Source of the DNA: a virus
Lineage: Duplodnaviria; Heunggongvirae; Uroviricota; Caudoviricetes
Length of the DNA stretch: 27,962 nucleotides
IMG/VR virus record: IMGVR_UViG_2627853678_000006
Coordinates: 1 to 27,962 of that record
Direction: 5' to 3' (one strand)
In this document: in pieces, positions 13,129-27,962 of the stretch
Layout: each line of letters starts with the position of its first letter
How positions within the stretch are numbered: the stretch's first letter is position 1
The notes under the pieces: generated by a model
The model's database searches: none
Seen by the model: the letters and a program-made list of their open reading frames with translations, nothing else
Told to the model about the DNA's origin: nothing
Translations under genes and position numbers: made by a program

Positions 13129-15465
13129 TTACAAATATGTGTTGCTATGTAGAGATGTGTTTATTCCATCTTTTATCTCAATTTTTGACGAAGCATACTC
13201 ATCATTCGCACTATCATCTATATCAAACTCATCTTGTAGATGAAGTGACTCATTTAACGGTTTATAAAACTCACCCATCATCATTTTGTAATGGGCAGTA
13301 TGCTCACTACATTCAAATATCTTCTGAAAAACAATTAAATATTTTTGCACAGACTCCGTATCTAAATTCATATAAAGATCATCACCTGCAAAATGGGAAC
13401 CATCATTAATCCATGACACTAAAGATTTAAATATGATTTTTTCATCACCATAAAAATGACACTCAAGCTTCCTAATATCCATCCCACCTAATATCTTAAA
13501 GTAATTCTCCAAAATCCTTCGCATTGTATTTTGTATAGTATTATTATTAATGTCTGTTCTTCTCAATTCGCACCAGAGCAAATCATAAGACGTTTTTATT
13601 GGGTTTGATTCGCACTTTTCAAGATATGAAACCTTCCCTTTTTTCCTTACAATCCAAAAAGTCTCCTCTTTCATTGCTTGATTACCGGATCTTTTGGTAT
13701 TAAAAGTCAACTCTTTATGAAAATAAATATTATGAGTAAGGAATATAATTTGCTTAATATTTCCTTCATCCTTACGAACATCCTCCATTAAATCTTTAAT
13801 CAACGAACTTACAATAAACAGAATATCACTATCTAAACTTGAAATTGGATCATCAAATACTACAACACGATCATCTAAAACACCTGATGCATTATCACTC
13901 CCTCTAACAAGGCTATAAAAGTACAAAAAAGTGATAAATGTCTTTTCTCCCTCACTAAGGGTTGTACGAGCATTATCTCCACTATCTCTTACTATCATAT
14001 AATGCTTTTTATCTTCGGAGGGTTTTAAGTAAAAATTTTTGAAGCCATAAGAGTCCAGAATCTTGTTAATTTTTGTAATAGTTGGAAGAGTACTGGTTTT
14101 ATTAGACTCAATTGCCTCAATAGCCGAAGTATTTAACATTAACTTCTTTTTGTCTTCTTCTATCCCAGATTTAAGTCCTTGTAACGTCCTATTAAATTTA
14201 TCAGATTTGCTACGGTAAGAAGTTATTTCAGACTTTAACTCCACCTTTACGATATATGCCCATATCTGCTTAGAAAGATTACTAGCCTCTACCTTTCTAT
14301 TACTATATATTTTGTTATTATTATCTATCAATAGATTTGAATCATTCAAAAAAGAAATAAAATCATCAACAACTTCACTTAAGTCACTAAAATGAACTGA
14401 TTCACTTAAAAAATTGCGTTTATTTTTTGCCAATTCAAAATTCTTGTTTAATTCAGATAATACTATCTTAGCCTTATCCTCAAACACTTCATAATTTATG
14501 AATGGAGATTTAATCGCCCTTATATCATCTATCGCCTTCAAGATATTATTAAGTTGATATTCATATTGTAAAACCAATGCATCGATTTCTCTTTTTTTTA
14601 ACTCATATGTTTTATCAAAATATGATGAAAGATTATCAAATATATTATCATTTACATCCTGCTGGCAGAATGGGCACTTGGGATTAGATTTGCTGAAATA
14701 TGTTAAACCCTCCTTAACCCAATCACTGTTATTGAGCATTGTAATTAAGTCTGAAACACTAACGTCTTTTTTCCCTAGAATACGCTCACTCCAAATTTCC
14801 CTACTTAAAATATCATCTATCCCATTGAAGGATGGAATTGTAATTGATACATGTGATGTCAATTCAGTAGAAAAAACAATTTTTGCTTTCTCAATTAACT
14901 CTGCTATTGAGCAAACTTCTGATGTATTATTTTCATACTCAGCCAACACTCTGGCTTTAAATTTTTCACTACTATTCCTTAATCCCTCAAAAGCCTTTGA
15001 GAACACATTGTCATGTTTTACTTTTTGCTTCCAACATGAATCTTTAAAAGATTTTTCATGGTCTTCGATTTTTTTAATAACGCCTAATTCATTATCACCA
15101 CCATCTATTAACTTTCCCTTTGCTATAATAGATTCCATTAGCTTATTTTTTTCTTCTTTAAGAGATATTAGTTTCTCTTCATCCTCCTTAAGATCGCTAC
15201 CAAGGGTAAATACACCTTTAATTTTATCTTGACTAAAATTTCTTTCAACAAAATCTTTATTATATACGTAGCTTATTAAAGATATATTATTTTTCCATTT
15301 AATCGGACATGTTGGATATTGTTCAGGGTCATTAATAATTTTACTTATAGTTGTTTTACCTGCACCATTAGCTCCATATAAATAGTTAAATTTAGAAAGT
15401 CCATGTAAAAGCTGCGTAGGGCCATTATATGAGCCTACCTTGTCAATAACTACCTCTTCAATCAT
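13129..15465 (-). CDS. RloC/PrrC-like anticodon-nuclease-type protein: ABC ATPase with coiled-coil zinc hook and C-terminal nuclease-like domain (function inferred)
   Basis: 778-aa AT-rich ORF with GAGG Shine-Dalgarno. Walker A GANGAGKTT at the N-terminus, CPFC zinc-hook motif in a long Lys/Glu-rich predicted coiled coil, LSEGEK signature, Walker B VVVFDDPISSLD, H-loop FLTHN, then about 200 aa containing R-x3-E (RRILENYF) and downstream His residues reminiscent of the PrrC catalytic triad. Confidence 0.55.
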   Translation of the reverse strand: MIEEVVIDKVGSYNGPTQLLHGLSKFNYLYGANGAGKTTISKIINDPEQYPTCPIKWKNNISLISYVYNKDFVERNFSQDKIKGVFTLGSDLKEDEEKLISLKEEKNKLMESIIAKGKLIDGGDNELGVIKKIEDHEKSFKDSCWKQKVKHDNVFSKAFEGLRNSSEKFKARVLAEYENNTSEVCSIAELIEKAKIVFSTELTSHVSITIPSFNGIDDILSREIWSERILGKKDVSVSDLITMLNNSDWVKEGLTYFSKSNPKCPFCQQDVNDNIFDNLSSYFDKTYELKKREIDALVLQYEYQLNNILKAIDDIRAIKSPFINYEVFEDKAKIVLSELNKNFELAKNKRNFLSESVHFSDLSEVVDDFISFLNDSNLLIDNNNKIYSNRKVEASNLSKQIWAYIVKVELKSEITSYRSKSDKFNRTLQGLKSGIEEDKKKLMLNTSAIEAIESNKTSTLPTITKINKILDSYGFKNFYLKPSEDKKHYMIVRDSGDNARTTLSEGEKTFITFLYFYSLVRGSDNASGVLDDRVVVFDDPISSLDSDILFIVSSLIKDLMEDVRKDEGNIKQIIFLTHNIYFHKELTFNTKRSGNQAMKEETFWIVRKKGKVSYLEKCESNPIKTSYDLLWCELRRTDINNNTIQNTMRRILENYFKILGGMDIRKLECHFYGDEKIIFKSLVSWINDGSHFAGDDLYMNLDTESVQKYLIVFQKIFECSEHTAHYKMMMGEFYKPLNESLHLQDEFDIDDSANDEYASSKIEIKDGINTSLHSNTYL

Positions 15466-15835: not shown

Positions 15836-16837
15836 ATGGGTGGAGAGACTTCGGCTATACAACGAGTCGCGGGTAAGATTTCTGATGATATTTTCTCAGT
15901 GTTCAAATGGGATCGTGCCGCTAGAGCGGACATGAATTGGGATTGTTGCCAAGAGGCTCATTCCAAGAAAACACATCCAAGCGATGTTGTATTTTTCTAC
16001 ATAGATCCATATGAGGAGGAAATGGTCTATCTCAACACAGACCTCAAAAGCTATGCAGAAGGTACTATTGGGAAAAAAATAGTCGAGGGAGCTTTAACAT
16101 CGCTTGCTTTAGCTACCGAATGTGCAAATGTCAGTGAAGAATGGCGATTGAAATATGTTCATGATGATTCTTTAGGTTATAACGTAAGAGGGTTATTATT
16201 CTTATATAACCATGATAATTTATATGATAAAGACTTCTATGAGAATATTACAAAAAAATTAGATCACTCATCTATAAATTGCCCTCCAAACATCAAACTA
16301 CATTTGCTTGACCCTTATAAAATATCAGATTTGATAAACATATCTTCTGACATAACTAAGTTAATTGGTTCAGGAAAACTTCCTCAACCTGATAAGTTCA
16401 CATATTATTATCCAGATCTTTCCCTAACAAGAATAAAGCACCCTATTAATCAGACAACACCTGCAACAATTGAATTATTAACATCACCATACATTATAAT
16501 AAAGCATGAGGCTTTCAGTTGGCTCAGGGATAAAAACCCTGAGGGATATGTTGTTTATTACAATCAACCGGGGGATTCAGTAGACGAATTCGTTTACTTC
16601 TTTGATATGTTATCAACTTATCAGATATTAACCGAAGGTAAACCAATCGTATTACGCCATTGTCACATTCACCCAAATGAAAATGCCATTCATCATTTTG
16701 AAAGAGCGAAAAAGAAATACAGCACAGACTGGCTCTTAGGCGAGGATGAAAGACTTTTTCTTAAAATTGACTTCGACAAGACAGACAAAATTGTTGTTGA
16801 ATATAATCTTGAACAAATCGGCATGGAGCAACGATAA
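15836..16837 (+). CDS. Hypothetical protein, first gene of three-gene operon; possible PD-(D/E)xK-like motif
   Basis: 333-aa AT-rich ORF with AGGAG Shine-Dalgarno. Contains VVFFYID-x11-TDLK and a His-rich stretch RHCHIHPNENAIHH. Stop overlaps the next start (TAATG). Confidence 0.75.
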   Translation: MGGETSAIQRVAGKISDDIFSVFKWDRAARADMNWDCCQEAHSKKTHPSDVVFFYIDPYEEEMVYLNTDLKSYAEGTIGKKIVEGALTSLALATECANVSEEWRLKYVHDDSLGYNVRGLLFLYNHDNLYDKDFYENITKKLDHSSINCPPNIKLHLLDPYKISDLINISSDITKLIGSGKLPQPDKFTYYYPDLSLTRIKHPINQTTPATIELLTSPYIIIKHEAFSWLRDKNPEGYVVYYNQPGDSVDEFVYFFDMLSTYQILTEGKPIVLRHCHIHPNENAIHHFERAKKKYSTDWLLGEDERLFLKIDFDKTDKIVVEYNLEQIGMEQR

Positions 16838-17916
16838 TGGCTAAAAAACTATATTTCGCAACTGATAAAAATATTTATGATGCATTACATCATAAAAGGA
16901 TAACCGCTGCAAAGTTGCATGAATTATTGTTGAATCGAGGTGTGTTTTTATCACCAGAACTCGACAAGGAAATACTAATCGAGGAAATATCCAAACTTCC
17001 TCACGGATTTAATGAATTAGAACACATAAAAAAACTGGTCAAAACATATGACCCAAGGGAAAGCACTACTAGTGTGAGCTTCCAAACCTCAACAAATCAG
17101 GCCGAATTAAAAAGTGCTGCTGAAGCACTAAAAAAAACATGCTCCCCTAGTAAAGGTCAAAGCCTGAATATTGTAGCTAAAAAAGATGGCTCGCTTACAG
17201 TAGAATACAAATATGAAGAAATAGACCTGTCTAAAACTGCATTACGTCAGATCGACAAGCGGAATGTTATAATAGAACTTCGCCCTGGAGCTGACAAAGT
17301 TGAAGTACGTATGCCTCAAAACCCCGAGGCAAAAAAAGTTATTGAGAGCTTGCAAAACGAGCTATCTAAAATCAAGTCCGAACCTATCGAGCGCTTCGAA
17401 ATATCATTACTAGCAATAACTGATCCTACATTGCGAAGTCAGTTTTTTCAGGAATTAATGAATGGTCTACGCGGTTATGAGACTGATGACGTAACAAAAG
17501 TCGAATTAAATCGCAGTACTGATGCTAGTGAGGATGAAGACAAGGAAGAAACTATTGATACCGGATTTGTTAAGAAAGCCGTCCTTAATGGTGAAGGGGT
17601 AAATAGTTCAGCTATATTTTCTCAACTACATGAGAAAGGTTATTATATCGGGCGTATTGCATGGTCTTCAAAGCCGACAAGTGGAATTGGAGACAGAATC
17701 AACGTCGAAGCATTTTTCAAAGACTCAGAAAAATGCTGTGACTTTGCCTATCAAATTAAAGGTATAAACAATCAAAAAGAAGACGGTTTCAATGTAACCA
17801 TTCGCGCGGCAACAGCACAAGAGAAAAAACATATTAGTGAATTAATTGAGTCCGCCGCTGAAAATGCCTATAATATAATAATAGGATCAGAGGTGAACGA
17901 AGATGAAAAAGGTTAA
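16837..17916 (+). CDS. Hypothetical protein, second gene of three-gene operon
   Basis: 359-aa ORF, translationally coupled on both sides; acidic central linker (STDASEDEDKEE). No motif I can name. Confidence 0.75.
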   Translation: MAKKLYFATDKNIYDALHHKRITAAKLHELLLNRGVFLSPELDKEILIEEISKLPHGFNELEHIKKLVKTYDPRESTTSVSFQTSTNQAELKSAAEALKKTCSPSKGQSLNIVAKKDGSLTVEYKYEEIDLSKTALRQIDKRNVIIELRPGADKVEVRMPQNPEAKKVIESLQNELSKIKSEPIERFEISLLAITDPTLRSQFFQELMNGLRGYETDDVTKVELNRSTDASEDEDKEETIDTGFVKKAVLNGEGVNSSAIFSQLHEKGYYIGRIAWSSKPTSGIGDRINVEAFFKDSEKCCDFAYQIKGINNQKEDGFNVTIRAATAQEKKHISELIESAAENAYNIIIGSEVNEDEKG

Positions 17917-18586
17917 ATGGCTTAAGTTAAACATACGGCTTGAGTTTGAAACAGCCGTTAGACGTCTTTCTCTTGATTCTTTTACAGAGGATAAAGGGAA
18001 AGGGTTCATTTTTGATAAAATACGCCATGATTTTGCAAATGGTCGCTTTGTCGAGCGTATTGTTTATCATGATAAAATATTAAGCTTTGACGGAAGCGAA
18101 ACTACCGTTGAAAGAATCGAATATCGCACCACAAATTTTAGCGTGGCTTTAGACTCTCTTCCTGTAATGCAGATTACTAACCCACCCAGAACTTTAAAGC
18201 CTTTTTCGCAGGCTTTGGTAAAAAATCTTGGCTTAGGTGTTAGTTTGGAAGAAATTGACATAAACCCTATAGACTGGCTTAATGAAATATCTTCAAGTGT
18301 AAATATCAATTTAACACAACTTGATATTTCAAGGGTTAGAGTTTCTGATTACGCCACAGCTAAAATGCAAATAATTGGCAGCAATGATCTTAGGAAGTAT
18401 TATAAAGAAGAATTAGAGGGTAAAAAAATAAGAATTGACAGGCTTGTTTGCTCTGTTAATTCATTAGAATATTCCGGTAAGCTCAAGATCACCAATAGCG
18501 GCCTTGCTTATATTGATGTTAGAAATGAGAATGAGTTTACGAAAATCGTTTTTGATACGTTAAAAAAAGTCACCCTTCAATCATAG
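17903..18586 (+). CDS. Hypothetical protein, third gene of three-gene operon
   Basis: 227-aa ORF overlapping the previous gene by 14 nt; followed by a strong hairpin. Confidence 0.75.
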   Translation: MKKVKWLKLNIRLEFETAVRRLSLDSFTEDKGKGFIFDKIRHDFANGRFVERIVYHDKILSFDGSETTVERIEYRTTNFSVALDSLPVMQITNPPRTLKPFSQALVKNLGLGVSLEEIDINPIDWLNEISSSVNINLTQLDISRVRVSDYATAKMQIIGSNDLRKYYKEELEGKKIRIDRLVCSVNSLEYSGKLKITNSGLAYIDVRNENEFTKIVFDTLKKVTLQS

Positions 18587-18642: not shown

Positions 18643-18673
18643 GTAGGCGTCAGAATCAAGTTCTGACGCCTAC
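18643..18673 (+). terminator. Stem-loop terminator after the three-gene operon
   Basis: Perfect 13-bp inverted repeat gtaggcgtcagaa / ttctgacgcctac with 5-nt loop, followed by aatgtttctt. Lies between the convergent ends of the operon and the DinI-like gene. Confidence 0.55.
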
Positions 18674-18681
18674 AATGTTTC

Positions 18682-18915
18682 TTAATGCAGCCAGCTATCG
18701 TCCTCCCACACCTTCTGCATAATTTTCATCACTTGTTTTCTTTCTTCGTCCAGTTGCAGTCCGGTCAGTTCCACACCGTTAGAGCTACCTTTGCGGATAC
18801 GAATTACCGTTTTGGGATACAGGGGGCGCAGATTGCGGTAAAGCTCGGATTCAAGGGCGTCCAGGGTAGACTGGCTAATTTTCTGCTCTTTATCGATCAT
18901 TATTTCAATGCGCAT
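18682..18915 (-). CDS. DinI-family protein
   Basis: Start MRIEIMIDKEQ... at ATG 18913-18915 with GAGGTGA Shine-Dalgarno; about 77 aa. Resembles E. coli DinI (MRIEVTIAK...) in length and sequence. Confidence 0.7.
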   Translation of the reverse strand: MRIEIMIDKEQKISQSTLDALESELYRNLRPLYPKTVIRIRKGSSNGVELTGLQLDEERKQVMKIMQKVWEDDSWLH

Positions 18916-18925
18916 AAAAGTCACC

Positions 18926-19114
18926 TCAGCTGATGACATCCATTGAGCGGTTGTATTCGTGGCTTCTGATTTTTGCCATGAGTTCATCAGTCAATTCAGA
19001 AACCCACTGCAGAGCCAGCCCCTTCTCTTCATCACTACACTCACTAGCCGCTACAAGCTTAAGAAAAAAATCAATGCGCTGGAGCTTCAAAGACTCCAAA
19101 AAATAGTCCTGCAT
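18926..19114 (-). CDS. Small hypothetical protein, first gene of SOS-regulated pair; possibly a Tum-like antirepressor module
   Basis: 62-aa ORF from ATG 19112-19114 with AGGAGG Shine-Dalgarno. Its stop overlaps the Shine-Dalgarno of the DinI-like gene. LexA box lies just upstream. Confidence 0.5.
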   Translation of the reverse strand: MQDYFLESLKLQRIDFFLKLVAASECSDEEKGLALQWVSELTDELMAKIRSHEYNRSMDVIS

Positions 19115-19157
19115 TTTTCCTCCTATGACACCACAAGCAATACTGTACACATAACCA

Positions 19158-19173
19158 CTGTTTATATTTACAG
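19158..19173. promoter_or_regulatory. LexA (SOS) box overlapping the promoter of the small-ORF/DinI-like operon
   Basis: CTGTTTATATTTACAG read directly; fits CTGT-N8-ACAG with an AT-rich spacer. About 45-60 bp upstream of the 19114 start, overlapping candidate TTTACA / TATACT elements on the minus strand. Confidence 0.6.
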
Positions 19174-19267
19174 TATATAATAATCTTACTGATGTAAAAC
19201 GTTTTTTTACGTTCATCAGCCTGATATGCCTGGTATTATTAAGAGCACGAATTGTTAACCCGCGTAA

Positions 19268-21682
19268 TTAATACAGATCCCGCCACTTATCATCTTCCTG
19301 CAAACGCTGGTTCCGATAGAAGATACGCAGGCCTGCTCCTGACGGAATACTGCCGCCGCGAAGGAGTAAATCGACCTCTTTCTCGCTGCCATCAAATCCT
19401 CTGGACTTCAGTTCATAGACGAGCTGCTGTCGTTGATGGTCTGTAATTCGCTGTTTGTAGTCTCTACGCCGTTTCGGTTTCACCAGGCGTAACCTTGCAG
19501 CCAGTTCCCGGCGTTCTTTTTTGTTCATACTGTGCAGGTAATCGTGCAACTCCTTGTCATCCATACGGGTGATATCCGTTCTGGTATCCCCATCAGCTGA
19601 TTTGTCTTTCCCTTGTTGGTACAAATTTTCAGCAAGGGGACAGTTATTGCCACGAGTCCAAGGGGCGCAAGCGCCCTGGTCGGCTGCCGCCTCCTGAACG
19701 TCAACGGCCTTACGAACCATTTTCCATTTCATTGCATGAGTGCAGATCTTGCCCTGTACAATGGGTGACCAGATGCCATAAATACGAATACCGTGATCGC
19801 CATAAGCGGTCGGCTCTTCGTTAATTTCATAAGCTGTTCTGATAAGGTGATATTTGCGGGGAACCAGTACGCCGCCCTGCTTCATGATGTAGGTGGCAAA
19901 ACAGCCAGCATCAGCGGCAGCCAGGATGGCATCAAGGCGCGGGTTATCCAGTACCGGCGCACCTGCTTTTTTGTCACCCTGTTGCCTTGCCGCCTGACCA
20001 GCCAGCAATCGCAGTTCACGGTAAGCCTGACGCCCCGGAATGCCAAAGAAGCGGAATTGCTGAACACGATGCAGAGACGCCCAGGCATTAACGTATTCAG
20101 CGTTATCACGCAGAGATTTACCCGTTTCCTTGCTGATCTCGCCAGCCAGACCACGCCCGTCAATGTTCTTACTGATGTATTTCGCGATGTAGCTAGTCGG
20201 CGTTCCTTTGCGCGGGTTTATCAGCTCAGACTTAAAGCGTGGCCCCGTGTTATTACCCAGCTCCTCGCGGTCTTCACGGATAGCAAACTTACGCAACAAT
20301 GCAGTAATGGCGCGGCGGTCTTTTTTGCGCATGAAACACAACAGGTGCCAGTGAACTGTGCCGTCATGATGCGGCTCAGCCACCCGCACGCCATACCAGC
20401 GCAACCCGGCTTTGTGCATCGCCTTACGAAATGCAGCAAACATGCCGACCAGATAATCACTGCTTTGTCTTACCGTCGCATTTGTCCAGGTCGGGTTGGG
20501 CCTGCCGTTATTTAGCGTGGAATGGAAACGTGACGGACAGGTGATGGTGTAGAAAACGGCGCAGTCACCGCGCATTTCCGCGATAAGCTCCAGACCTTTA
20601 ACACAGGCCATCATCTCATTGCGGCGATGCGCAGGGTTGCTGCTGCTGGCGTTTACCACATCCTCCATGTCCAGCGTGTCGCCGTCTTCGTTCACCAGTT
20701 CATGAGAACGGAAAAACTCCAGCGACTTACGGCGCTGCTCACGTTTATGCATCACGGCTTCATAGCTGACATAGGGAGATGCTTTTTTGCTGACCAGGCA
20801 AACAGCACGCAACTGCTCTTCCCGCCATTCGCAACGCATCTTCCACAATTTCCGATACCACCAGTCGGCGCACAGCATACGCGCCAGCGACCCCGGAATG
20901 AGTTCATAGGGCACGGGTTTACGGCGGTTTCTTTTCCGGCGGAGTTGCTCAAACGCAGGCGGTATGACATCCAGTCGCAGGGTTTCCGCCGCCACCTTTT
21001 CCCATGTCTTGCGGATTTCTTCTGGCTTAACGTCATCGGTGGCATACAAATCGCCACAAGCGGCATCAAGGCACATGCTCATATGCGCAGCTACCAGGGT
21101 GGACAGGCGTTTCACCTGATCCTGACTCATTTCAGGCAGGATCAGCAGACCGTCCAGCCCTTCATGGCTTGCCATAAAGCGAAAAGAAGTGGATAGCTGA
21201 CTGTCGCGTACATGCTCCAGTCGTTCCAGACATGGCTTAATCGTCTCACGCAAATAGCGGGAATAAGCCTTTGGCCTGCCCAGGCTGCTGAAGTATTCAA
21301 TACGTTGCATCAGCGGCTTGCTGATATGGGAAGGCTGGGCGTTGACGTCCGCCAGAATGACCATATCCGGATTAAAACGCTGCTGCTCATGCGCCAGCTT
21401 TGCCCAACTAATGAGCTTATCCTGTTCCATTTCGCGCTGGACAGGATCACGGGATTCATTAAAGAAATAACGCTCCCAGACCTGATCACTCAGCGCCTCA
21501 CGGCGCAGCTGTTCCTGCTCGTTATCGGCAGCGTACAGAGTGATCAGGTTTGAAAGCGCAGAAACCGGCGCAACTTCCGCCGGGTCCAGATAAGGGTTAA
21601 TGGCCTTTTTCGGGCTGTTCCATGAGAATGCTGCGGCGACCTCGTTAAAGCCGCTGCAGTTGTTCATATCAGCATGGCTCAT
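19268..21682 (-). CDS. A: Replication initiation protein A (rolling-circle replication endonuclease)
   Basis: 804-aa ORF (P2 gpA about 761 aa), last gene of the early operon. Confidence 0.85.
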
Positions 21683-23424: not shown

Positions 23425-23649
23425 CTATCGTTCTTTGTTCTTACGGTAACGCTCAAGGGGAGATACATTTTTTCGTACCGTCTCTTTAACCTGCTCTCCC
23501 CGTAAAAACGTCCCATCCTTTAGCGTGAAAAAGTAACTGCCATCGCCCGACAACGACGGATAACAACAGAGCAAATCATCTTCAGGTACTGAATAACTCT
23601 CCCCTCTGTAACGAAACTGATAAACCACTTCACTTTCCGCTGCATACAT
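23425..23649 (-). CDS. Hypothetical small protein overlapping the 3' end of the CII-like ORF
   Basis: 74-aa ORF with GGAG Shine-Dalgarno 9 nt upstream of ATG 23649; overlaps the CII-like ORF by about 130 nt. Confidence 0.3.
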   Translation of the reverse strand: MYAAESEVVYQFRYRGESYSVPEDDLLCCYPSLSGDGSYFFTLKDGTFLRGEQVKETVRKNVSPLERYRKNKER

Positions 23650-24332
23650 TTTGACTTTCTCCGTTTCCTCGTGGTCAATTCAGACAGCAATTCATCTTGT
23701 GAATGACATGGATGCCAGCGTTTACCATCCTCACCCATGATCCAGCCGTGACCGTAGTGCATTGCCGGGCTTTGTTTTACCAGCAGCGATGCAAATGATG
23801 GTTCTTTCGTCAGCATAAGCACCTCACAGCAAACCGAATGAAGCACCGAGCCAGTCACGGTATCAACTGCACTCGCCATCGCAGGATTAGCCTGTAAACG
23901 GGCCTGCAATGAAACAGCCGCCAGCGCCATCAGTCGTGTTACAGAATTAATGCTGCTGATCGCATCGCGACGGCCTGCACTGGTTTTTACATCGCCAGAA
24001 ACCGCACCTGCAGCAACACGCCCGATCTCTGCGGTTGCACTCATGACGTAATGTGGCAGTCTCTCTTTTGCCACCTCATTTACCGGTATACATGGCAGGC
24101 AGTGAATCTGAGCCAGAAATCCATCAACCAGTGTTGGGTCTTCAGTGAGATCGGTTAACTGCCAGATATCTGACGCAGTAAGTTGGTGTGGTTGTTCCGG
24201 GTTGAGCTTGTTACGCAAGGTTTGAACGTTCATACCTGCGCGCTCTGCCAGCTTCGCCATGTTGTGTCGTAGGGCGAAGGCCCGGCAGGCTTCATTGAAA
24301 TGGGGATGTTTTGAAATGCGATAGTCAAACAT
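23520..24332 (-). CDS. cII: CII-like transcriptional regulator (186 CII family); C-terminal about 60 aa questionable
   Basis: N-terminal region (MFDYRISKHPHFNEACRAFALRHNMAKLAERAGMNVQTLRNKLNP...) resembles 186-type CII with HTH. At 270 aa the ORF is longer than I expect for this family and its tail is Cys/Arg-rich. Confidence 0.55.
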   Translation of the reverse strand: MFDYRISKHPHFNEACRAFALRHNMAKLAERAGMNVQTLRNKLNPEQPHQLTASDIWQLTDLTEDPTLVDGFLAQIHCLPCIPVNEVAKERLPHYVMSATAEIGRVAAGAVSGDVKTSAGRRDAISSINSVTRLMALAAVSLQARLQANPAMASAVDTVTGSVLHSVCCEVLMLTKEPSFASLLVKQSPAMHYGHGWIMGEDGKRWHPCHSQDELLSELTTRKRRKSKCMQRKVKWFISFVTEGRVIQYLKMICSVVIRRCRAMAVTFSR

Positions 24333-24364: not shown

Positions 24365-24586
24365 CTAGTTGATAGTCACGTTGCAATCAGAGAGGGCATC
24401 GATCGTCATCGCAGCAATGTTAATCATCACTTTTTCACGCTTTTTATCCTTACGTAGGCGATGACGAGGCAAACGCCCATCTGCAAGCATGTCGTTAATT
24501 GTGTCGATAGATAAGCCAGTGAGTTCACTATATCTTTCTATAGTAACGTGGGGGGTGATGAGAGTGATTGAAATGTTAGGTCTCAT
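24365..24586 (-). CDS. apl: Apl/Cox-like excisionase-repressor (HTH)
   Basis: Start MRPNISITLITPHVTIERYSELTGLSIDT at ATG 24584-24586; divergent from cI, the 186 switch arrangement. Confidence 0.65.
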   Translation of the reverse strand: MRPNISITLITPHVTIERYSELTGLSIDTINDMLADGRLPRHRLRKDKKREKVMINIAAMTIDALSDCNVTIN

Positions 24587-24658
24587 GATGCAACATTCCT
24601 CTTTTAGCAATGATTAATCAGGATGAATACTGATCGTTTGTATTATGTGAACACTGCA

Positions 24659-24705: not shown

Positions 24706-25275
24706 GTGACCATGAATTTGGAAAAAGGCGGTCGTGGGGCCATAGAGCGCATGGTTGAAGCCTATGGTTTCAAGACAAGACAAGCTTTGTGTGATCATTT
24801 GGGCATTTCTAAAAGCACCTTAGCCACGCGCTATATGCGTGATTCATTCCCGGCAGAATGGGTAATCCAATGTGCACTTGAAACCGGCACGTCGCTAGAG
24901 TGGCTAACTACTGGGCAAGGTTCAAAAGAAAGTTCACAAAAAGAAAACACAAAAGAGATCGAAAGGAAGATTTTATCAAGCGGAAAACTACTTCCTGATG
25001 GTTACTACATTTTCGACAACAACTTTTTGCCTGAAAAACTAAAAAAACCTTTTGTTGTGATCGATGGCGCATCAGAGTTTATCTGTGATTCGGATTATGA
25101 GGATGTACGTGATGGTAAGTGGATCGTTGATATTGATGGCGAGGTTGCTATCAGGAATCTGACAAGACTGCCGGGACGTCGTCTAAATGTCGATGGTGGC
25201 AGCAGTTCCTTTGAATGCAAAATAGATGAAATTGATATCATAGGAAAAATTAGAAGCGCGATCGTCAATTATTAA
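24706..25275 (+). CDS. cI: CI immunity repressor (186-type)
   Basis: 189-aa ORF (186 CI about 192 aa) with N-terminal HTH-like region (...[43 protein letters not shown]); divergent from apl and upstream of int. Confidence 0.75.
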
Positions 25276-25298
25276 AATTAATGTATAAGGAAATAAAT

Positions 25299-25484
25299 AT
25301 GTTTTATAAATCTATACATATCCTACTTATTTGTTTATTTATTACTTTACCTATTACAAGTTTTGCAAAAAATTATCCATGTTCTGGTAAGAAAGGGGGA
25401 GTTTCACATTGTACATCTGATGGGAAGTTCGTTTGCAATGATGGAACGCAAAGCAAGTCAAAGAAAATATGTTCTAAAAACTAA
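25299..25484 (+). CDS. Small secreted Cys-rich peptide (hypothetical)
   Basis: Preferred start ATG 25299 with AAGGAA Shine-Dalgarno. Signal peptide [23 protein letters not shown], then a 38-aa Lys-rich mature part with four Cys. AT-rich. Confidence 0.5.
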
Positions 25485-25486
25485 GG

Positions 25487-26827
25487 TTGCTTCATATGAA
25501 TAATGATATGACTTTTGAAAACAGAGATGAGTATAATAGAAAAATCATTGCTGAAAAAATAATAAGCTTACTCGAGTCCCCCTTAAAAATATCCCCTATT
25601 GTTATCGATGGGGACTGGGGTACCGGTAAAACCGAATTTTCAAAAAAATTAGCGGCATTGATTGAAAAAAATGAATCTGGGCATAAAGTAGTATATATTG
25701 ATGCATTTACTGAAGATCATAATGATGCTCCCATACTTACTATAATGGCTGCAATAGTTGCATTATATCCAGAGAGTGAAAAGAAGGAATTAATATCAAA
25801 GGCATTACCAGCATTGAGATTTGGACTTAAAACTGTACTCAAAGCTGGCGCTGGGTGGATTTTAAAACAAAATGCAGATGATATTGCGGATGAATTCGAA
25901 GATGCTATTAAAGATGCGGCTAACTCAGCTATAGATGGTACTGTAGAAGCACTGCTTGATGATCATATTGAAGCAAAGAAACATTTGCTTGCTCTCAAGG
26001 AAGTACTTGCTGAACTAACTAGCGAAAATAAAATAACAATTATCATTGACGAACTTGACCGTTGTAAACCAAGCTTTGCCATCTCTATCATCGAAAATAT
26101 AAAACATGTTTTTGACACTGAAAATCTTAACTTCTTGTTAGTTGCTAACATCTCACAATTGAAAGCATCAATAAATCATATTTACGGTGCAGGTGTTGAC
26201 TCAGAAAGATATCTTGATAAATTTATAAAATTCACTTACAGCCTGCCAGTGACTTTCACTGAAAACAATTACGATAAAATTTTGGCTTCGAACTCTCATT
26301 TTAGAATGCTATGTAACGAGTCTGAAAGACTAAAAGAAATTGGAGAAAGTAGTATTCATATAGTTCAAAAATTTATCGAACTAAAAGGCTTGTCGCTACG
26401 GGAAGTTGAAACCTTATCAAGATATCTAGAAATTTATCAAATTTTATCTCAAAATGAAATCAGCAATAAATTTATACCAGGCTATTGCTGTTATCGAACC
26501 CTTGCAGTAATTCTTTATTCGTTTGGTCGTGAACTGGCCCTTAACTACGTAGAAGATAAAATAGATGCACAATTAATAATTAATTTCTTCGGTGTTAATA
26601 GACTCCCATATCAGACAGATCAATATAACATCAACATCTACTATTATGCATTATTTGGTATAACTTATAAATATATGCCAGAAGGTTCTCCTTTACTTCC
26701 TTCTGAAAACGATGAAAAAAACAGATGGGCTGAAATAAGTGATTATCATATTTTAAAAGGAAATGCAGGTGTAGAAGACCCTGTTAGAATATTCAAAAAC
26801 ACCTTAAAAGTTTTCTTGCTCCAATGA
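25487..26827 (+). CDS. KAP-family P-loop NTPase
   Basis: 446-aa AT-rich ORF. Walker A in KAP form (IVIDGDWGTGKTEFSKKLA) and Walker B IIIDELDRCKP, the DELDRC hallmark of KAP NTPases. Starts 2 nt after the small peptide gene. Confidence 0.7.
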   Translation: MLHMNNDMTFENRDEYNRKIIAEKIISLLESPLKISPIVIDGDWGTGKTEFSKKLAALIEKNESGHKVVYIDAFTEDHNDAPILTIMAAIVALYPESEKKELISKALPALRFGLKTVLKAGAGWILKQNADDIADEFEDAIKDAANSAIDGTVEALLDDHIEAKKHLLALKEVLAELTSENKITIIIDELDRCKPSFAISIIENIKHVFDTENLNFLLVANISQLKASINHIYGAGVDSERYLDKFIKFTYSLPVTFTENNYDKILASNSHFRMLCNESERLKEIGESSIHIVQKFIELKGLSLREVETLSRYLEIYQILSQNEISNKFIPGYCCYRTLAVILYSFGRELALNYVEDKIDAQLIINFFGVNRLPYQTDQYNINIYYYALFGITYKYMPEGSPLLPSENDEKNRWAEISDYHILKGNAGVEDPVRIFKNTLKVFLLQ

Positions 26828-26860
26828 AATGTTTGATTGAAGATCTTTAAACATTGACCA

Positions 26861-26876
26861 CTGTTCAAACATACAG
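26861..26876. promoter_or_regulatory. LexA-like box (CTGT-N8-ACAG) upstream of int; may be chance
   Basis: CTGTTCAAACATACAG read directly. Spacer is less AT-rich than consensus, and about 0.4 chance matches to the bare pattern are expected in 28 kb. Confidence 0.25.
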
Positions 26877-26884
26877 TTAAATTT

Positions 26885-26909
26885 AGTCCTCAGACATGAG
26901 GACTTTTTT
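26885..26909 (+). terminator. Stem-loop plus T-run immediately upstream of int; the 3' arm contains the int Shine-Dalgarno
   Basis: agtcctc (26885-26891) pairs with gaggact (26898-26904), 6-nt loop, then ttttt and ATG at 26910. GAGGA at 26898-26902 is the only Shine-Dalgarno for int. Confidence 0.5.
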
Positions 26910-27962
26910 ATGGCAGTACGAAAACTCACCACAGGAAAATGGCTGTGCGAATGTTATCCCGCCGGACGTAGTGGACGTCGTGTGCGTAAACAATTCGCCA
27001 CCAAAGGCGAAGCTCTGGCTTTTGAGCGTCACACGATGGAAGAAACCGAAGCAAAGCCTTGGCTAGGTGAATCAGTGGATCGTCGAACACTGAAAGACGT
27101 GGTTGAGCTATGGTTCAAATTACATGGTAAATCTCTGACTGCTGGGCAGCATGTCTATGACAAATTGCTGCTGATGGTTAACGCTCTGGGCAATCCTCTT
27201 GCAACCGATCTCACCTCTAAAATGTTTGCCCACTATCGAGATAAACGCCTGACAGGTGAGATCTACTTCAGCGAGAAATGGAAGAAAGGAGCCAGCCCGG
27301 TCACCATTAACCTGGAGCAAAGCTATCTAAGTAGTGTTTTTAGCGAACTATCCCGCCTGGGCGAATGGTCGTATCCAAACCCACTGGAGAACATGCGAAA
27401 ATTCACCATCGCAGAAAAAGAGATGGCATGGCTTACCCATGAGCAGATTGTTGAACTGCTGGCTGATTGCAAACGTCAGGACCCAATTCTGGCACTGGTA
27501 GTCAAGATATGCTTAAGCACAGGCGCACGCTGGCGAGAAGCAATAAACCTTACCCGATCACAGGTGACTAAATACCGAATTACCTTTGTAAGAACGAAGG
27601 GGAAGAAAAACAGAAGCATCCCTATCAGTAAAGAGCTTTATGAAGAGATCATGGCGCTTGATGGGTTCAATTTCTTCACAGACTGCTATTTTCAATTTTT
27701 ATCCGTGATGGAAAAAACGTCAATCGTGCTCCCTCGCGGTCAACTGACACACGTTCTGCGCCATACGTTTGCGGCACATTTCATGATGTCGGGTGGAAAT
27801 ATCCTTGCTTTGCAAAAAATCCTCGGACATCACGATATAAAAATGACTATGCGTTACGCTCATCTGGCACCGGATCATCTGGAAACGGCGCTCCGTTTCA
27901 ATCCTCTGGCAACGCTGCCAAGTGGCGACAAAGTGGCGGCAGCGGTTGGCATTACCCCGTAA
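26910..27962 (+). CDS. int: Tyrosine integrase (P2/186 family)
   Basis: 350-aa ORF with tyrosine-recombinase motifs (ARWREAINL, HVLRHTFA, MRYAHL). Stop codon is the last three bases of the window, so any att site lies outside. Confidence 0.85.
   Translation: MAVRKLTTGKWLCECYPAGRSGRRVRKQFATKGEALAFERHTMEETEAKPWLGESVDRRTLKDVVELWFKLHGKSLTAGQHVYDKLLLMVNALGNPLATDLTSKMFAHYRDKRLTGEIYFSEKWKKGASPVTINLEQSYLSSVFSELSRLGEWSYPNPLENMRKFTIAEKEMAWLTHEQIVELLADCKRQDPILALVVKICLSTGARWREAINLTRSQVTKYRITFVRTKGKKNRSIPISKELYEEIMALDGFNFFTDCYFQFLSVMEKTSIVLPRGQLTHVLRHTFAAHFMMSGGNILALQKILGHHDIKMTMRYAHLAPDHLETALRFNPLATLPSGDKVAAAVGITP

What the first reader, a model, noticed from the sequence alone, without database searches (positions are those of the whole stretch)
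18682..19173. SOS-controlled two-gene module (small ORF plus DinI-like) with a near-consensus LexA box
CTGTTTATATTTACAG overlaps the promoter of a coupled pair: a 62-aa protein and a DinI-family protein. In phage 186 the LexA-controlled tum antirepressor, which I recall as having a DinI-related region, sits at the equivalent position. With a 186-type CI/Apl switch present, this pair is the likely SOS-induction pathway of the prophage. The two ORFs are in frames that cannot be joined by a single deletion and the second has its own Shine-Dalgarno, so I read them as separate genes.
Basis: partly seen in the sequence, partly recalled or inferred. Interest (0 to 1): 0.5.

Follow-up and report, generated by a model that had tools for sequence, protein, structure and literature searches.

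The report
Split tum SOS-induction module of prophage
This is the known LexA-controlled "tumA-tumB" pair (a small antirepressor plus a DinI-like protein) that lets P2/186-type prophages such as Fels-2 and E. coli HS DuoHS wake up after DNA damage, so it is real but ordinary.

Summary
On the minus strand, just downstream of the P2-type replicase gene, a LexA box (19158-19173) overlaps a weak promoter. The promoter drives a 62-aa gene (19114-18926) and a 77-aa DinI-family gene (18915-18682).

The 62-aa protein is 100% identical to E. coli HS ECHS_RS04495. That gene is the "tum" whose in-frame deletion abolishes mitomycin C induction of prophage DuoHS (PMC12055606). It is 97% identical to Fels-2 STM2728. 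Profile comparison shows it is homologous to the N-terminal half of phage 186 Tum (hhalign 96.5%, E 9e-10). The 77-aa protein matches the DinI-like C-terminal half of Tum (41% identity). PSP3 annotates the same split as tumA/tumB. The module occurs in 1125 of 5426 complete E. coli genomes.

One correction: a single-base deletion could fuse the two frames. The genes are nonetheless separate, because spacer and frame relation vary among relatives.

Two additions. The operator is a colicin-type double overlapping LexA box (31 nt). TumA identity does not covary with CI identity across 33 prophages.

Novelty: already known. Interest: low.

The parts
19187..19225 (-). Hairpin after the stop codon of the replicase gene A (stop at 19268). 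It probably insulates the SOS promoter from read-through. Its 3' arm contains the -35 hexamer.
   Evidence: RNA fold gives -12.6 kcal/mol, z -3.96, with 0 of 200 shuffles folding as well. Lemire et al. (PMC3121763) describe terminator-like palindromes ahead of LexA boxes in Gifsy SOS loci.
19170..19198 (-). Promoter-like hexamers of the tumA-tumB operon: TTTACA (19198-19193), then 15 nt and TATACT (19177-19172), or 17 nt and TACTGT (19175-19170).
   Evidence: Relaxed hexamer enumeration. This is analogous to 186 p95, whose annotated -10 is the first six bases of the 20-mer LexA site. It falls below the strict scanner threshold. The transcription start was not determined.
19158..19173 (-). LexA box 1, CTGTAAATATAAACAG. 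All 8 core positions match, and 17 of 20 positions match the 20-mer consensus.
   Evidence: Conserved in 46 of 50 related loci.
19143..19158 (-). LexA box 2, GTGGTTATGTGTACAG. It overlaps box 1 by one base. Together the two form a 31-nt colicin-type double SOS box.
   Evidence: The alignment to the colicin N and cloacin operators is almost base-for-base. A 66-nt query hits 838 plasmid records, and the listed top partial matches are 5-9 kb mobilizable plasmids. The double form is present in 21 of 50 tumA loci. The single box of 186 and PSP3 aligns with box 2.
18926..19114 (-). tumA: a 62-aa antirepressor, homologous to the N-terminal half of 186 Tum. SD AGGAGG at 19124-19119.
   Evidence: 100% identical to E. 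coli HS ECHS_RS04495, the 'tum' of DuoHS. 97% identical to Fels-2 STM2728. phrog_698, E 5.9e-38. hhalign to the 186 Tum N-terminal family gives 96.5% probability. The AF2 model is a helical hairpin, pLDDT 88.
18682..18915 (-). tumB: a 77-aa DinI-family protein. Its SD (GAGGTG) overlaps the tumA stop codon, and the spacer is 10 nt.
   Evidence: PF06183, E 6.6e-23. 41% identity to 186 Tum residues 71-145. Full-length match to E. coli DinI 1GHH, E 2.7e-6. 78% identity to PSP3 TumB and 100% to the Fels-2 protein.
18643..18673 (.). A 14-15 bp GC-rich hairpin between the convergent tumB gene and the 3HP cargo genes. It is the likely end of the two-gene SOS transcript. The T-run lies on the + strand only.
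   Evidence: Terminator scan. RNA fold of the minus strand gives -26.4 kcal/mol, z -8.2.
24706..25275 (+). cI: the 186-type immunity repressor and presumed target of TumA.
   Evidence: PF07022, E 3e-33, and PF16452, E 6e-29. 37% identity to 186 CI. 71% identity to E. coli HS CI, with residues 3-62 identical.

Best explanation
This is the SOS-induction operon of a Fels-2/186-type (Peduoviridae) prophage, in its split tumA-tumB form.

In an undamaged lysogen, LexA occupies a double overlapping operator that covers the -10 region and the start of a weak promoter just downstream of gene A. This keeps the operon silent. DNA damage activates RecA, LexA cleaves itself, and the two genes are transcribed.

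TumA is a 62-aa helical hairpin homologous to the N-terminal half of 186 Tum. It binds the CI repressor non-covalently and stops it from occupying its operators. That derepresses the early lytic promoter (Apl, CII, replication genes) and flips the switch.

TumB is a stand-alone DinI homologue. Its translation is probably coupled to that of tumA. It is not the inducer. It probably modulates RecA filament or co-protease activity, and so tunes the strength or duration of the SOS signal.

Shown here: the anatomy, the homologies, the conservation of the operator, and identity to a genetically tested gene. Inferred: LexA binding, the physical TumA-CI contact, and the role of TumB.
For: - **Anatomy and LexA boxes:**
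- **Same position as 186 p95-tum, with an annotated LexA site:**
- **Same split annotated in PSP3:** tumA 'similar to 5' end 186 tum; UV induction of prophage', and tumB 'similar to dinI and 3' end of 186 tum'. Fels-2 has the same split.
- **TumA homology to the Tum N-terminal half:**
- **TumB is DinI family:**
- **Identity to a tested gene:** TumA is identical to ECHS_RS04495, the tum gene deleted in PMC12055606. The tum deletion and lexA(Ind-) both block MMC induction of DuoHS.
- **Literature on the split:** PMC3121763 states that Fels-2 and PSP3 have tum split by a stop codon. [quoted passage not shown] Non-polar dinI deletions in Gifsy phages did not change induction.
- **Mode of action in 186:** Tum acts by sequestering CI (PMC7708051).
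- **Operator conservation:** a LexA box lies upstream of tumA in 46 of 50 loci.
- **tumB is dispensable for the layout:** tumA occurs without a detectable adjacent tumB in 23 of the 45 genomic loci.
Against: - No direct test of LexA binding or of TumA-CI interaction exists for this exact prophage. Its CI C-terminal domain differs from that of DuoHS (71% overall identity).
- TumA identity does not covary with CI identity across 33 prophages (Spearman 0.06; Mantel r 0.09, p 0.07). A specific binding pair would not obviously behave this way, unless TumA recognises the conserved CI N-terminal domain.
- The promoter hexamers are weak or oddly spaced, and the strict scan did not find them.
- The tum deletion in HS removes the upstream gene of a probably coupled pair, so a contribution from reduced tumB translation is not formally excluded.
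Confidence: 0.9

Rival explanations
1. The pair is a single 186-type tum gene broken by a frameshift, making it a decaying pseudogene in a defective prophage.
For: The two frames differ by +1. The DinI frame is open for 24 codons upstream of its ATG, so one deleted base would rebuild a protein of about 140 aa, close to the 146 aa of Tum. The same prophage carries a 1-nt deletion that fuses cII to fil.
Against: - The 62-aa ORF has the same length and stop position in most loci of the close (>= 80% identity) clade, which spans many genera.
- Spacers of 9-12 nt and frame relations of 0, 1 and 2 all occur.
- tumB has its own SD.
- None of the 67 family representatives at 50% clustering carries a C-terminal DinI extension.
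- The identical split gene is functional in E. coli HS.
- Stand-alone 63-78 aa 'Tum protein' forms are also common in the 186-type lineage.
Confidence: 0.03
2. The DinI-like TumB is the effector of induction, for example by acting on RecA or CI. The 62-aa protein would then be an accessory or chaperone.
For: In 186 the two parts are one polypeptide, and shorter C-terminal products are annotated as modulating SOS induction. Database annotations name only the DinI part.
Against: - An in-frame deletion of the 62-aa gene alone abolishes induction in HS.
- PSP3 antirepressor activity maps to the upstream gene, and Gifsy dinI deletions have no effect on induction (PMC3121763).
- tblastn finds no adjacent tumB in 23 of 45 tumA loci, including the whole clade that is about 45% identical.
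Confidence: 0.04
3. TumA induces the prophage indirectly, through a host or phage factor other than CI. This would explain why it does not co-evolve with CI.
For: There is no TumA-CI covariation. Pairs with TumA at least 85% identical have a median CI identity of 44% (range 30-99%). Pairs with TumA below 60% identical have a median of 43%. Mantel r is 0.09.
Against: - 186 Tum, whose N-terminal half is homologous, is described as inhibiting CI DNA binding and sequestering CI.
- The CI N-terminal domain is well conserved across these phages: mean 64% identity against 33% for the C-terminal domain, with many invariant positions. This offers a common target surface.
- Modular recombination among P2-like phages also explains the lack of covariation.
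Confidence: 0.05

Closest known systems
E. coli HS prophage DuoHS tum (ECHS_RS04495) with the DinI-like gene ECHS_RS04500
   Same: - The TumA protein is identical (62/62).
- The gene order is the same: gpA, tumA, tumB.
- The promoter/operator region is 97% identical, including box 1.
- The CI N-terminal domain is identical.
- The tum deletion and lexA(Ind-) block MMC induction (PMC12055606).
   Different: - The CI C-terminal domain has diverged (71% overall identity).
- Three central bases of box 2 differ.
- The cargo downstream of tumB differs. HS has a same-strand hypothetical gene, whereas this window has convergent 3HP defence genes.
Salmonella phages Fels-2 (STM2728 and STM2726.1) and PSP3 (tumA/tumB)
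   Same: All three have tum split into an upstream small gene and a downstream DinI-like gene after gene A.

- Fels-2: TumA is 97% identical and TumB 100% identical, with the same double LexA box.
- PSP3: the genes are explicitly annotated tumA ('UV induction of prophage') and tumB.
   Different: - PSP3 TumA is too diverged for pairwise detection (hhalign 8% probability but in the same register). Its genes are in the same frame separated by one stop codon, and it has a single LexA box.
- Fels-2 CI is only 41-43% identical to this CI.
Coliphage 186 Tum (146 aa) and the p95 SOS operon
   Same: - It has the same position and a LexA-repressed promoter whose -10 overlaps the LexA site.
- The N-terminal half is homologous to TumA.
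- The C-terminal half is homologous to TumB.
- It acts with a 186-type CI switch.
   Different: - In 186 the two halves are one polypeptide, with internal starts that also yield the DinI-like part alone.
- It has a single LexA box.
- Its operon continues into orf97.
Double overlapping SOS boxes of colicin and cloacin operons (ColN, cloacin and related plasmids)
   Same: - Both are 31-nt operators made of two 16-mers that share one base.
- The second box begins with the non-consensus GTGG.
- The sequence is 88-90% identical over about 42 nt.
- The literature describes such operators as binding two LexA dimers and preventing untimely expression of a lethal function (PMC2994835).
   Different: Here the operator controls a prophage antirepressor rather than a bacteriocin. 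The -35 region and the leader are unrelated. Binding of two LexA dimers was not tested for this operator.
Gifsy prophage SOS loci (dinI, then gfoA/gftA antirepressor, then irsA)
   Same: Each is a LexA-controlled operon that pairs a small non-cleaving antirepressor with a DinI homologue, and each is preceded by a terminator-like palindrome (PMC3121763).
   Different: The gene order is reversed, with dinI first. No relationship between those antirepressors and TumA was tested here. The repressors belong to a different family.

Membership tests
Tum / TumA antirepressor of 186-type phages | Sequence homology to the N-terminal (non-DinI) half of 186 Tum | tested here: met
   Pairwise BLASTP is negative. 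The family HMM scores 23.4 bits against 186 Tum, E 2.6e-9 for a single comparison. hhalign gives 96.5% probability, E 8.9e-10, over 45 columns.
Tum / TumA antirepressor of 186-type phages | Location downstream of replicase gene A, under its own promoter that carries a LexA box | tested here: met
   gpA ends at 19268, the boxes lie at 19143-19173, and the ATG is at 19114. The layout is the same in 186, PSP3, Fels-2 and HS.
Tum / TumA antirepressor of 186-type phages | Required for SOS (UV or MMC) induction of the prophage | not testable with these tools
   This was not tested for the window's prophage. The 100% identical gene in E. coli HS is required (PMC12055606).
Tum / TumA antirepressor of 186-type phages | Binds CI and blocks its DNA binding without cleaving it | not testable with these tools
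   Known for 186 Tum (annotation; PMC7708051). The lack of TumA-CI covariation neither proves nor disproves it.
186 Tum proper (fused 146-aa protein) | Antirepressor and DinI-like parts in one polypeptide | tested here: not met
   Here there are two ORFs with a stop codon, a 10-nt spacer and a +1 frame offset. This is the PSP3/Fels-2 split form, not the 186 fused form.
DinI family (PF06183) | Pfam match above the gathering score, over the full length | tested here: met
   81.3 bits against a cut-off of 24.2, covering profile positions 1-63 of 63. Residues 1-75 align to residues 1-77 of E. coli DinI 1GHH, E 2.7e-6.
DinI family (PF06183) | Binding to RecA filaments or modulation of co-protease activity | not testable with these tools
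   Inferred from family membership only.
LexA (SOS) regulon operator | CTGT-N8-ACAG palindrome with an AT-rich centre, overlapping the promoter | tested here: met
   Box 1 matches 8 of 8 core positions and 17 of 20 overall. It is conserved in 46 of 50 loci, with variable centres.
LexA (SOS) regulon operator | LexA binding and damage-inducible transcription | not testable with these tools
   In HS, lexA(Ind-) blocks induction of the sister prophage, whose box 1 is identical.
Colicin-type double SOS box | Two 16-bp boxes overlapping by one base, the second starting GTGG | tested here: met
   The 31-mer CTGTAAATATAAACAGTGGTTATGTGTACAG aligns to the colicin N and cloacin operators. The double form is present in 21 of 50 tumA loci.
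186-type CI/CII lysis-lysogeny switch | CI with Phage_CI_repr and Phage_CI_C domains, a divergent Apl/Cox-like gene, and CII (CP76) | tested here: met
   PF07022, PF16452 and PF06892 all hit. The small divergent ORF at 24365-24610 has no Pfam hit, so calling it Apl rests on position only.

The most novel reading that the evidence does not exclude
This reading has two linked parts.

1. TumA of the Fels-2/DuoHS type may be a generic antirepressor that recognises the conserved N-terminal domain of 186-type CI repressors, whatever their immunity type. One SOS-induced prophage could then cross-induce heteroimmune P2-like prophages or satellites in the same cell.
2. Its promoter may carry a double LexA operator shared with Col plasmids. 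That would give colicin-like, high-threshold, late and heterogeneous induction, unlike the single-box p95 of 186.
Probability: 0.3. Interest if true: 0.4.

Novelty: already known. Interest (0 to 1): 0.15.

Why it matters
It confirms that this prophage has a complete SOS-induction pathway of the antirepressor type, which works without repressor cleavage. Two practical points follow.

- **Annotation gap.** The 62-aa inducer is labelled "hypothetical protein" in the RefSeq records listed from 1125 complete E. coli genomes that carry the module. It has no Pfam family, although it has been genetically validated. Annotation pipelines therefore miss the key induction gene of a very common prophage family.
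- **Leads for follow-up.** The colicin-type double LexA box, and the uncoupling of TumA type from CI type, are cheap and testable leads on induction threshold and on cross-talk between co-resident P2-like prophages.

Tried and rejected
- **Pairwise BLASTP.** The 62-aa protein gave no alignment against 186 Tum or PSP3 TumA, and neither did PSP3 TumA against 186 Tum. Homology only appears with profiles. PSP3 TumA as a single sequence stays unconvincing, at 8% probability.
- **Pfam on the 62-aa protein.** Nothing was found.
- **Strict sigma-70 scan.** It found no promoter. The hexamers reported come from a relaxed enumeration.
- **Literature access.** Bunny, Liu and Roth 2002 (J Bacteriol 184:6235), the primary Fels-2 lexA paper, is not held. 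Its content is cited only through PMC3121763.
- **The search for related loci.** The run with the 28-sequence alignment failed for lack of a conserved stretch. A 7-sequence alignment worked.
- **DinI detection by regular expression.** My first attempt was unreliable, so I replaced it with tblastn.
- **Fold search.** The TumA model gave only generic helical hairpins, with best E 0.42.
- **Programmed-frameshift idea.** I rejected it because the frame relation between tumA and tumB is 0, 1 or 2 in different relatives. The hairpin at the junction is also not significant (z -1.0).
- **Covariation test.** I ran it expecting a positive result if TumA were immunity-specific. It was negative.

Full report
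**Context.** The window is a P2/186-like (Peduoviridae) prophage. The stretch around the finding is 100% identical to several E. coli chromosomes. On the minus strand, the 804-aa replicase gene A (21682-19268) is followed by the feature in question. Further upstream lie a Dam-like methylase, CII/Fil, an Apl-like ORF and a divergent 186-type cI at 24706-25275.

**Observation.**
- CTGTTTATATTTACAG is at 19158-19173. Only two CTGT-N8-ACAG sites occur in the window, against 0.27 expected.
- Read on the coding strand with its flanks, it is TACTGTAAATATAAACAGTG. This matches 17 of 20 positions of the LexA consensus as I recall it, TACTGTATATATATACAGTA.
- It overlaps the only plausible promoter hexamers: TTTACA, then 15 nt and TATACT, or 17 nt and TACTGT. 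The second arrangement mirrors 186 p95, whose annotated -10 is the start of the LexA 20-mer. The strict promoter scan found nothing here, so the promoter assignment rests on position and analogy.
- A hairpin (-12.6 kcal/mol, z -4.0) separates the gene A stop from the promoter.
- Downstream come AGGAGG, then a 62-aa ORF (19114-18926). After a 10-nt spacer whose SD (GAGGTG) overlaps the first stop codon, a 77-aa ORF follows (18915-18682).
- A strong hairpin at 18643-18673 (-26.4 kcal/mol, z -8.2) lies between this operon and convergent cargo genes.

**Identity of the two proteins.**
- The 77-aa protein is a DinI-family member: PF06183, 81 bits against a cut-off of 24. It aligns over its full length to E. 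coli DinI 1GHH, E 2.7e-6. It is 41% identical to residues 71-145 of 186 Tum.
- The 62-aa protein has no Pfam family. It belongs to phrog_698, of unknown function.
- It gives no pairwise BLASTP hit to 186 Tum.
- I collected its family with two searches: 484 word-index hits and an exhaustive HMMER search with 67 representatives. I also collected the family of the 186 Tum N-terminal 70 residues.
- The family HMM then matches 186 Tum residues 7-48 at 23.4 bits, E 2.6e-9 for a single comparison.
- hhalign of the two alignments gives 96.5% probability and E 8.9e-10, with residues 2-46 aligned to residues 2-46.
- The shared pattern is roughly (Q/E)R(I/V)(D/E)...(K/R)L(V/T)A...C....(K/R)E(L/I)AL..(V/I)(S/A)E(L/I).
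- An AlphaFold2 model is a confident helical hairpin: H2-23 and H28-61, pLDDT 88. It has no informative PDB neighbour.
- The two window genes therefore correspond to the two halves of 186 Tum.

**This arrangement is already known.**
- GenBank annotates PSP3 tumA ('similar to 5' end 186 tum; UV induction of prophage') and tumB ('similar to dinI and 3' end of 186 tum').
- Fels-2 has STM2728 (62 aa, 97% identical to the window protein) followed by a DinI-family gene annotated as similar to PSP3 TumB.
- Lemire et al. (PMC3121763) state that Fels-2 and PSP3 have tum split by a stop codon. In PSP3 the upstream gene carries the antirepressor activity.
- The window's 62-aa protein is 62/62 identical to E. 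coli HS ECHS_RS04495 (gene map).
- That locus tag is the 'tum' gene removed by in-frame deletion in the Phollow study (PMC12055606; supplement). Both the tum deletion and lexA(Ind-) abolish mitomycin C-induced lysis of prophage DuoHS.
- The HS promoter region is 97% identical to the window's, with an identical box 1. The N-terminal domain of its CI is identical.
- The module is present in 1125 of 5426 complete E. coli genomes. In the listed records it is annotated 'DinI-like family protein | hypothetical protein | replication endonuclease'.

- The frames can be joined by one deletion. The DinI frame is +1 relative to the tumA frame and stays open 24 codons upstream of its ATG.
- The conclusion that these are two genes still stands, for better reasons:
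  - In 45 loci from species-representative genomes plus reference phages, the spacer is 9-12 nt and the frame relation is 0, 1 or 2.
  - In PSP3 the two genes are in the same frame with one stop codon between them.
  - tblastn (E <= 1e-3) finds no adjacent tumB in 23 of the 45 genomic loci.
  - None of the family representatives has a C-terminal DinI extension.
- Stand-alone 63-78 aa 'Tum protein' forms are also frequent in the 186-type lineage. The fused 186 protein is therefore the less common state.

**Addition 1: the operator is double.**
- Box 1 (19173-19158) shares its last base with a second box, GTGGTTATGTGTACAG (19158-19143).
- The 31-mer aligns almost base for base with the operators of colicin N and cloacin genes.
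- A 66-nt query finds 838 plasmid records, and the listed top partial matches are 5-9 kb mobilizable plasmids, at 83-90% identity over about 42 nt.
- Among 50 tumA loci, 21 have the double box (the clade at least about 82% identical to the window protein), 25 have a single box, and 4 have none detectable. Of those four, one is a truncated contig and one a truncated ORF.
- The CTGT/ACAG positions are kept while the centres vary, as expected for a functional LexA site.
- The single box of 186 and PSP3 aligns with box 2.
- I found no paper in the held library that notes the double box at tum. The primary Fels-2 paper is not held.

**Addition 2: TumA does not track immunity type.**
- Across 33 loci with full-length TumA and CI, pairwise identities are uncorrelated: Spearman 0.06; Mantel r 0.09, p 0.07.
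- For example, Fels-2 TumA is 97% identical to the window protein, while its CI is 43% identical.
- The CI N-terminal domain is much better conserved (mean 64%) than the C-terminal domain (33%).
- The simplest reading is that TumA contacts a conserved surface, plausibly on the DNA-binding domain, and that modules recombine freely. This is inference.

**Mechanism.** LexA represses the operon. DNA damage relieves that repression. TumA then sequesters CI, as described for 186 Tum. The early lytic promoter fires as a result. TumB, a DinI homologue, probably tunes RecA activity and is dispensable for induction, by analogy with the Gifsy dinI deletions and given its absence from many loci. I put confidence in this overall picture at 0.9.

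**Verdict.** The module is already known and has been tested genetically in a sister prophage that encodes the identical protein. Interest is low. The residual value lies in the annotation gap and in the two small additions above.

Noticed in passing
window 26855-26909 (upstream of int, which starts at 26910): The second CTGT-N8-ACAG site in the window, CTGTTCAAACATACAG at 26861-26876, sits in the 17-nt spacer of a promoter-like TTGACC...TTAAAT just upstream of the integrase gene.

- **Where it occurs.** It is conserved in E. coli HS as TTGACA-CTGGTTATACATACAG, and exactly in loci L036, L046 and L051. In the window and in HS, cargo genes separate int from cI.
- **Where it is absent.** It is absent in 186 and Fels-2, where cI abuts int.
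- **Other feature.** The int SD lies inside the hairpin CCTCAGACATGAGG, which is followed by T6.

This could be a LexA-controlled int promoter.
   Followed up: partly
window 23520-24332 (-), indel between 23851 and 23850: The cII ORF is 270 aa instead of 169 aa. It carries both the CII domain (PF06892, residues 10-145) and the Fil domain (PF10893, residues 177-230). Compared with E. coli HS, one base is missing (GACTGG-CTCGG). This shifts the end of cII into the fil frame. It is either a real frameshift that alters the CII C-terminus or a sequencing error.
   Followed up: partly
window 15836-18586 (+): Three co-oriented genes of 333, 359 and 227 aa have no Pfam hits. They match PADLOC Hp1, Hp2 and Hp3 over their full length (E 1e-240, 3e-248, 2e-157). 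From memory I take this to be the '3HP' candidate defence system. They occupy the variable slot between the portal gene and tumB.
   Followed up: partly
window 13129-15465 (-): A 778-aa AAA_13 ATPase (PF13166, E 1e-163) matches the PADLOC candidate system PDC-S06 (E 1e-266). It also has weaker LmuB and PrrC-like hits. It lies in the same cargo slot.
   Followed up: no
window 25281-26827 (+): Two genes are inserted between cI and int. One is a 446-aa KAP-family P-loop NTPase (PF07693, E 4e-51) that matches PADLOC PDC-S20 (E 1e-171). It is preceded by a 67-aa ORF with a hydrophobic, signal-peptide-like N-terminus.
   Followed up: no
window 19125-19190, compared with loci L005 (colicin N plasmid) and L006 (cloacin plasmid): The tumA operator shares 88-90% identity over about 42 nt with bacteriocin promoters on Col-type plasmids. 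The 66-nt query matched 838 plasmid records in all. The shared bases include non-consensus positions and the box centres. This is more than LexA binding alone would require and suggests a shared or exchanged regulatory cassette.
   Followed up: partly
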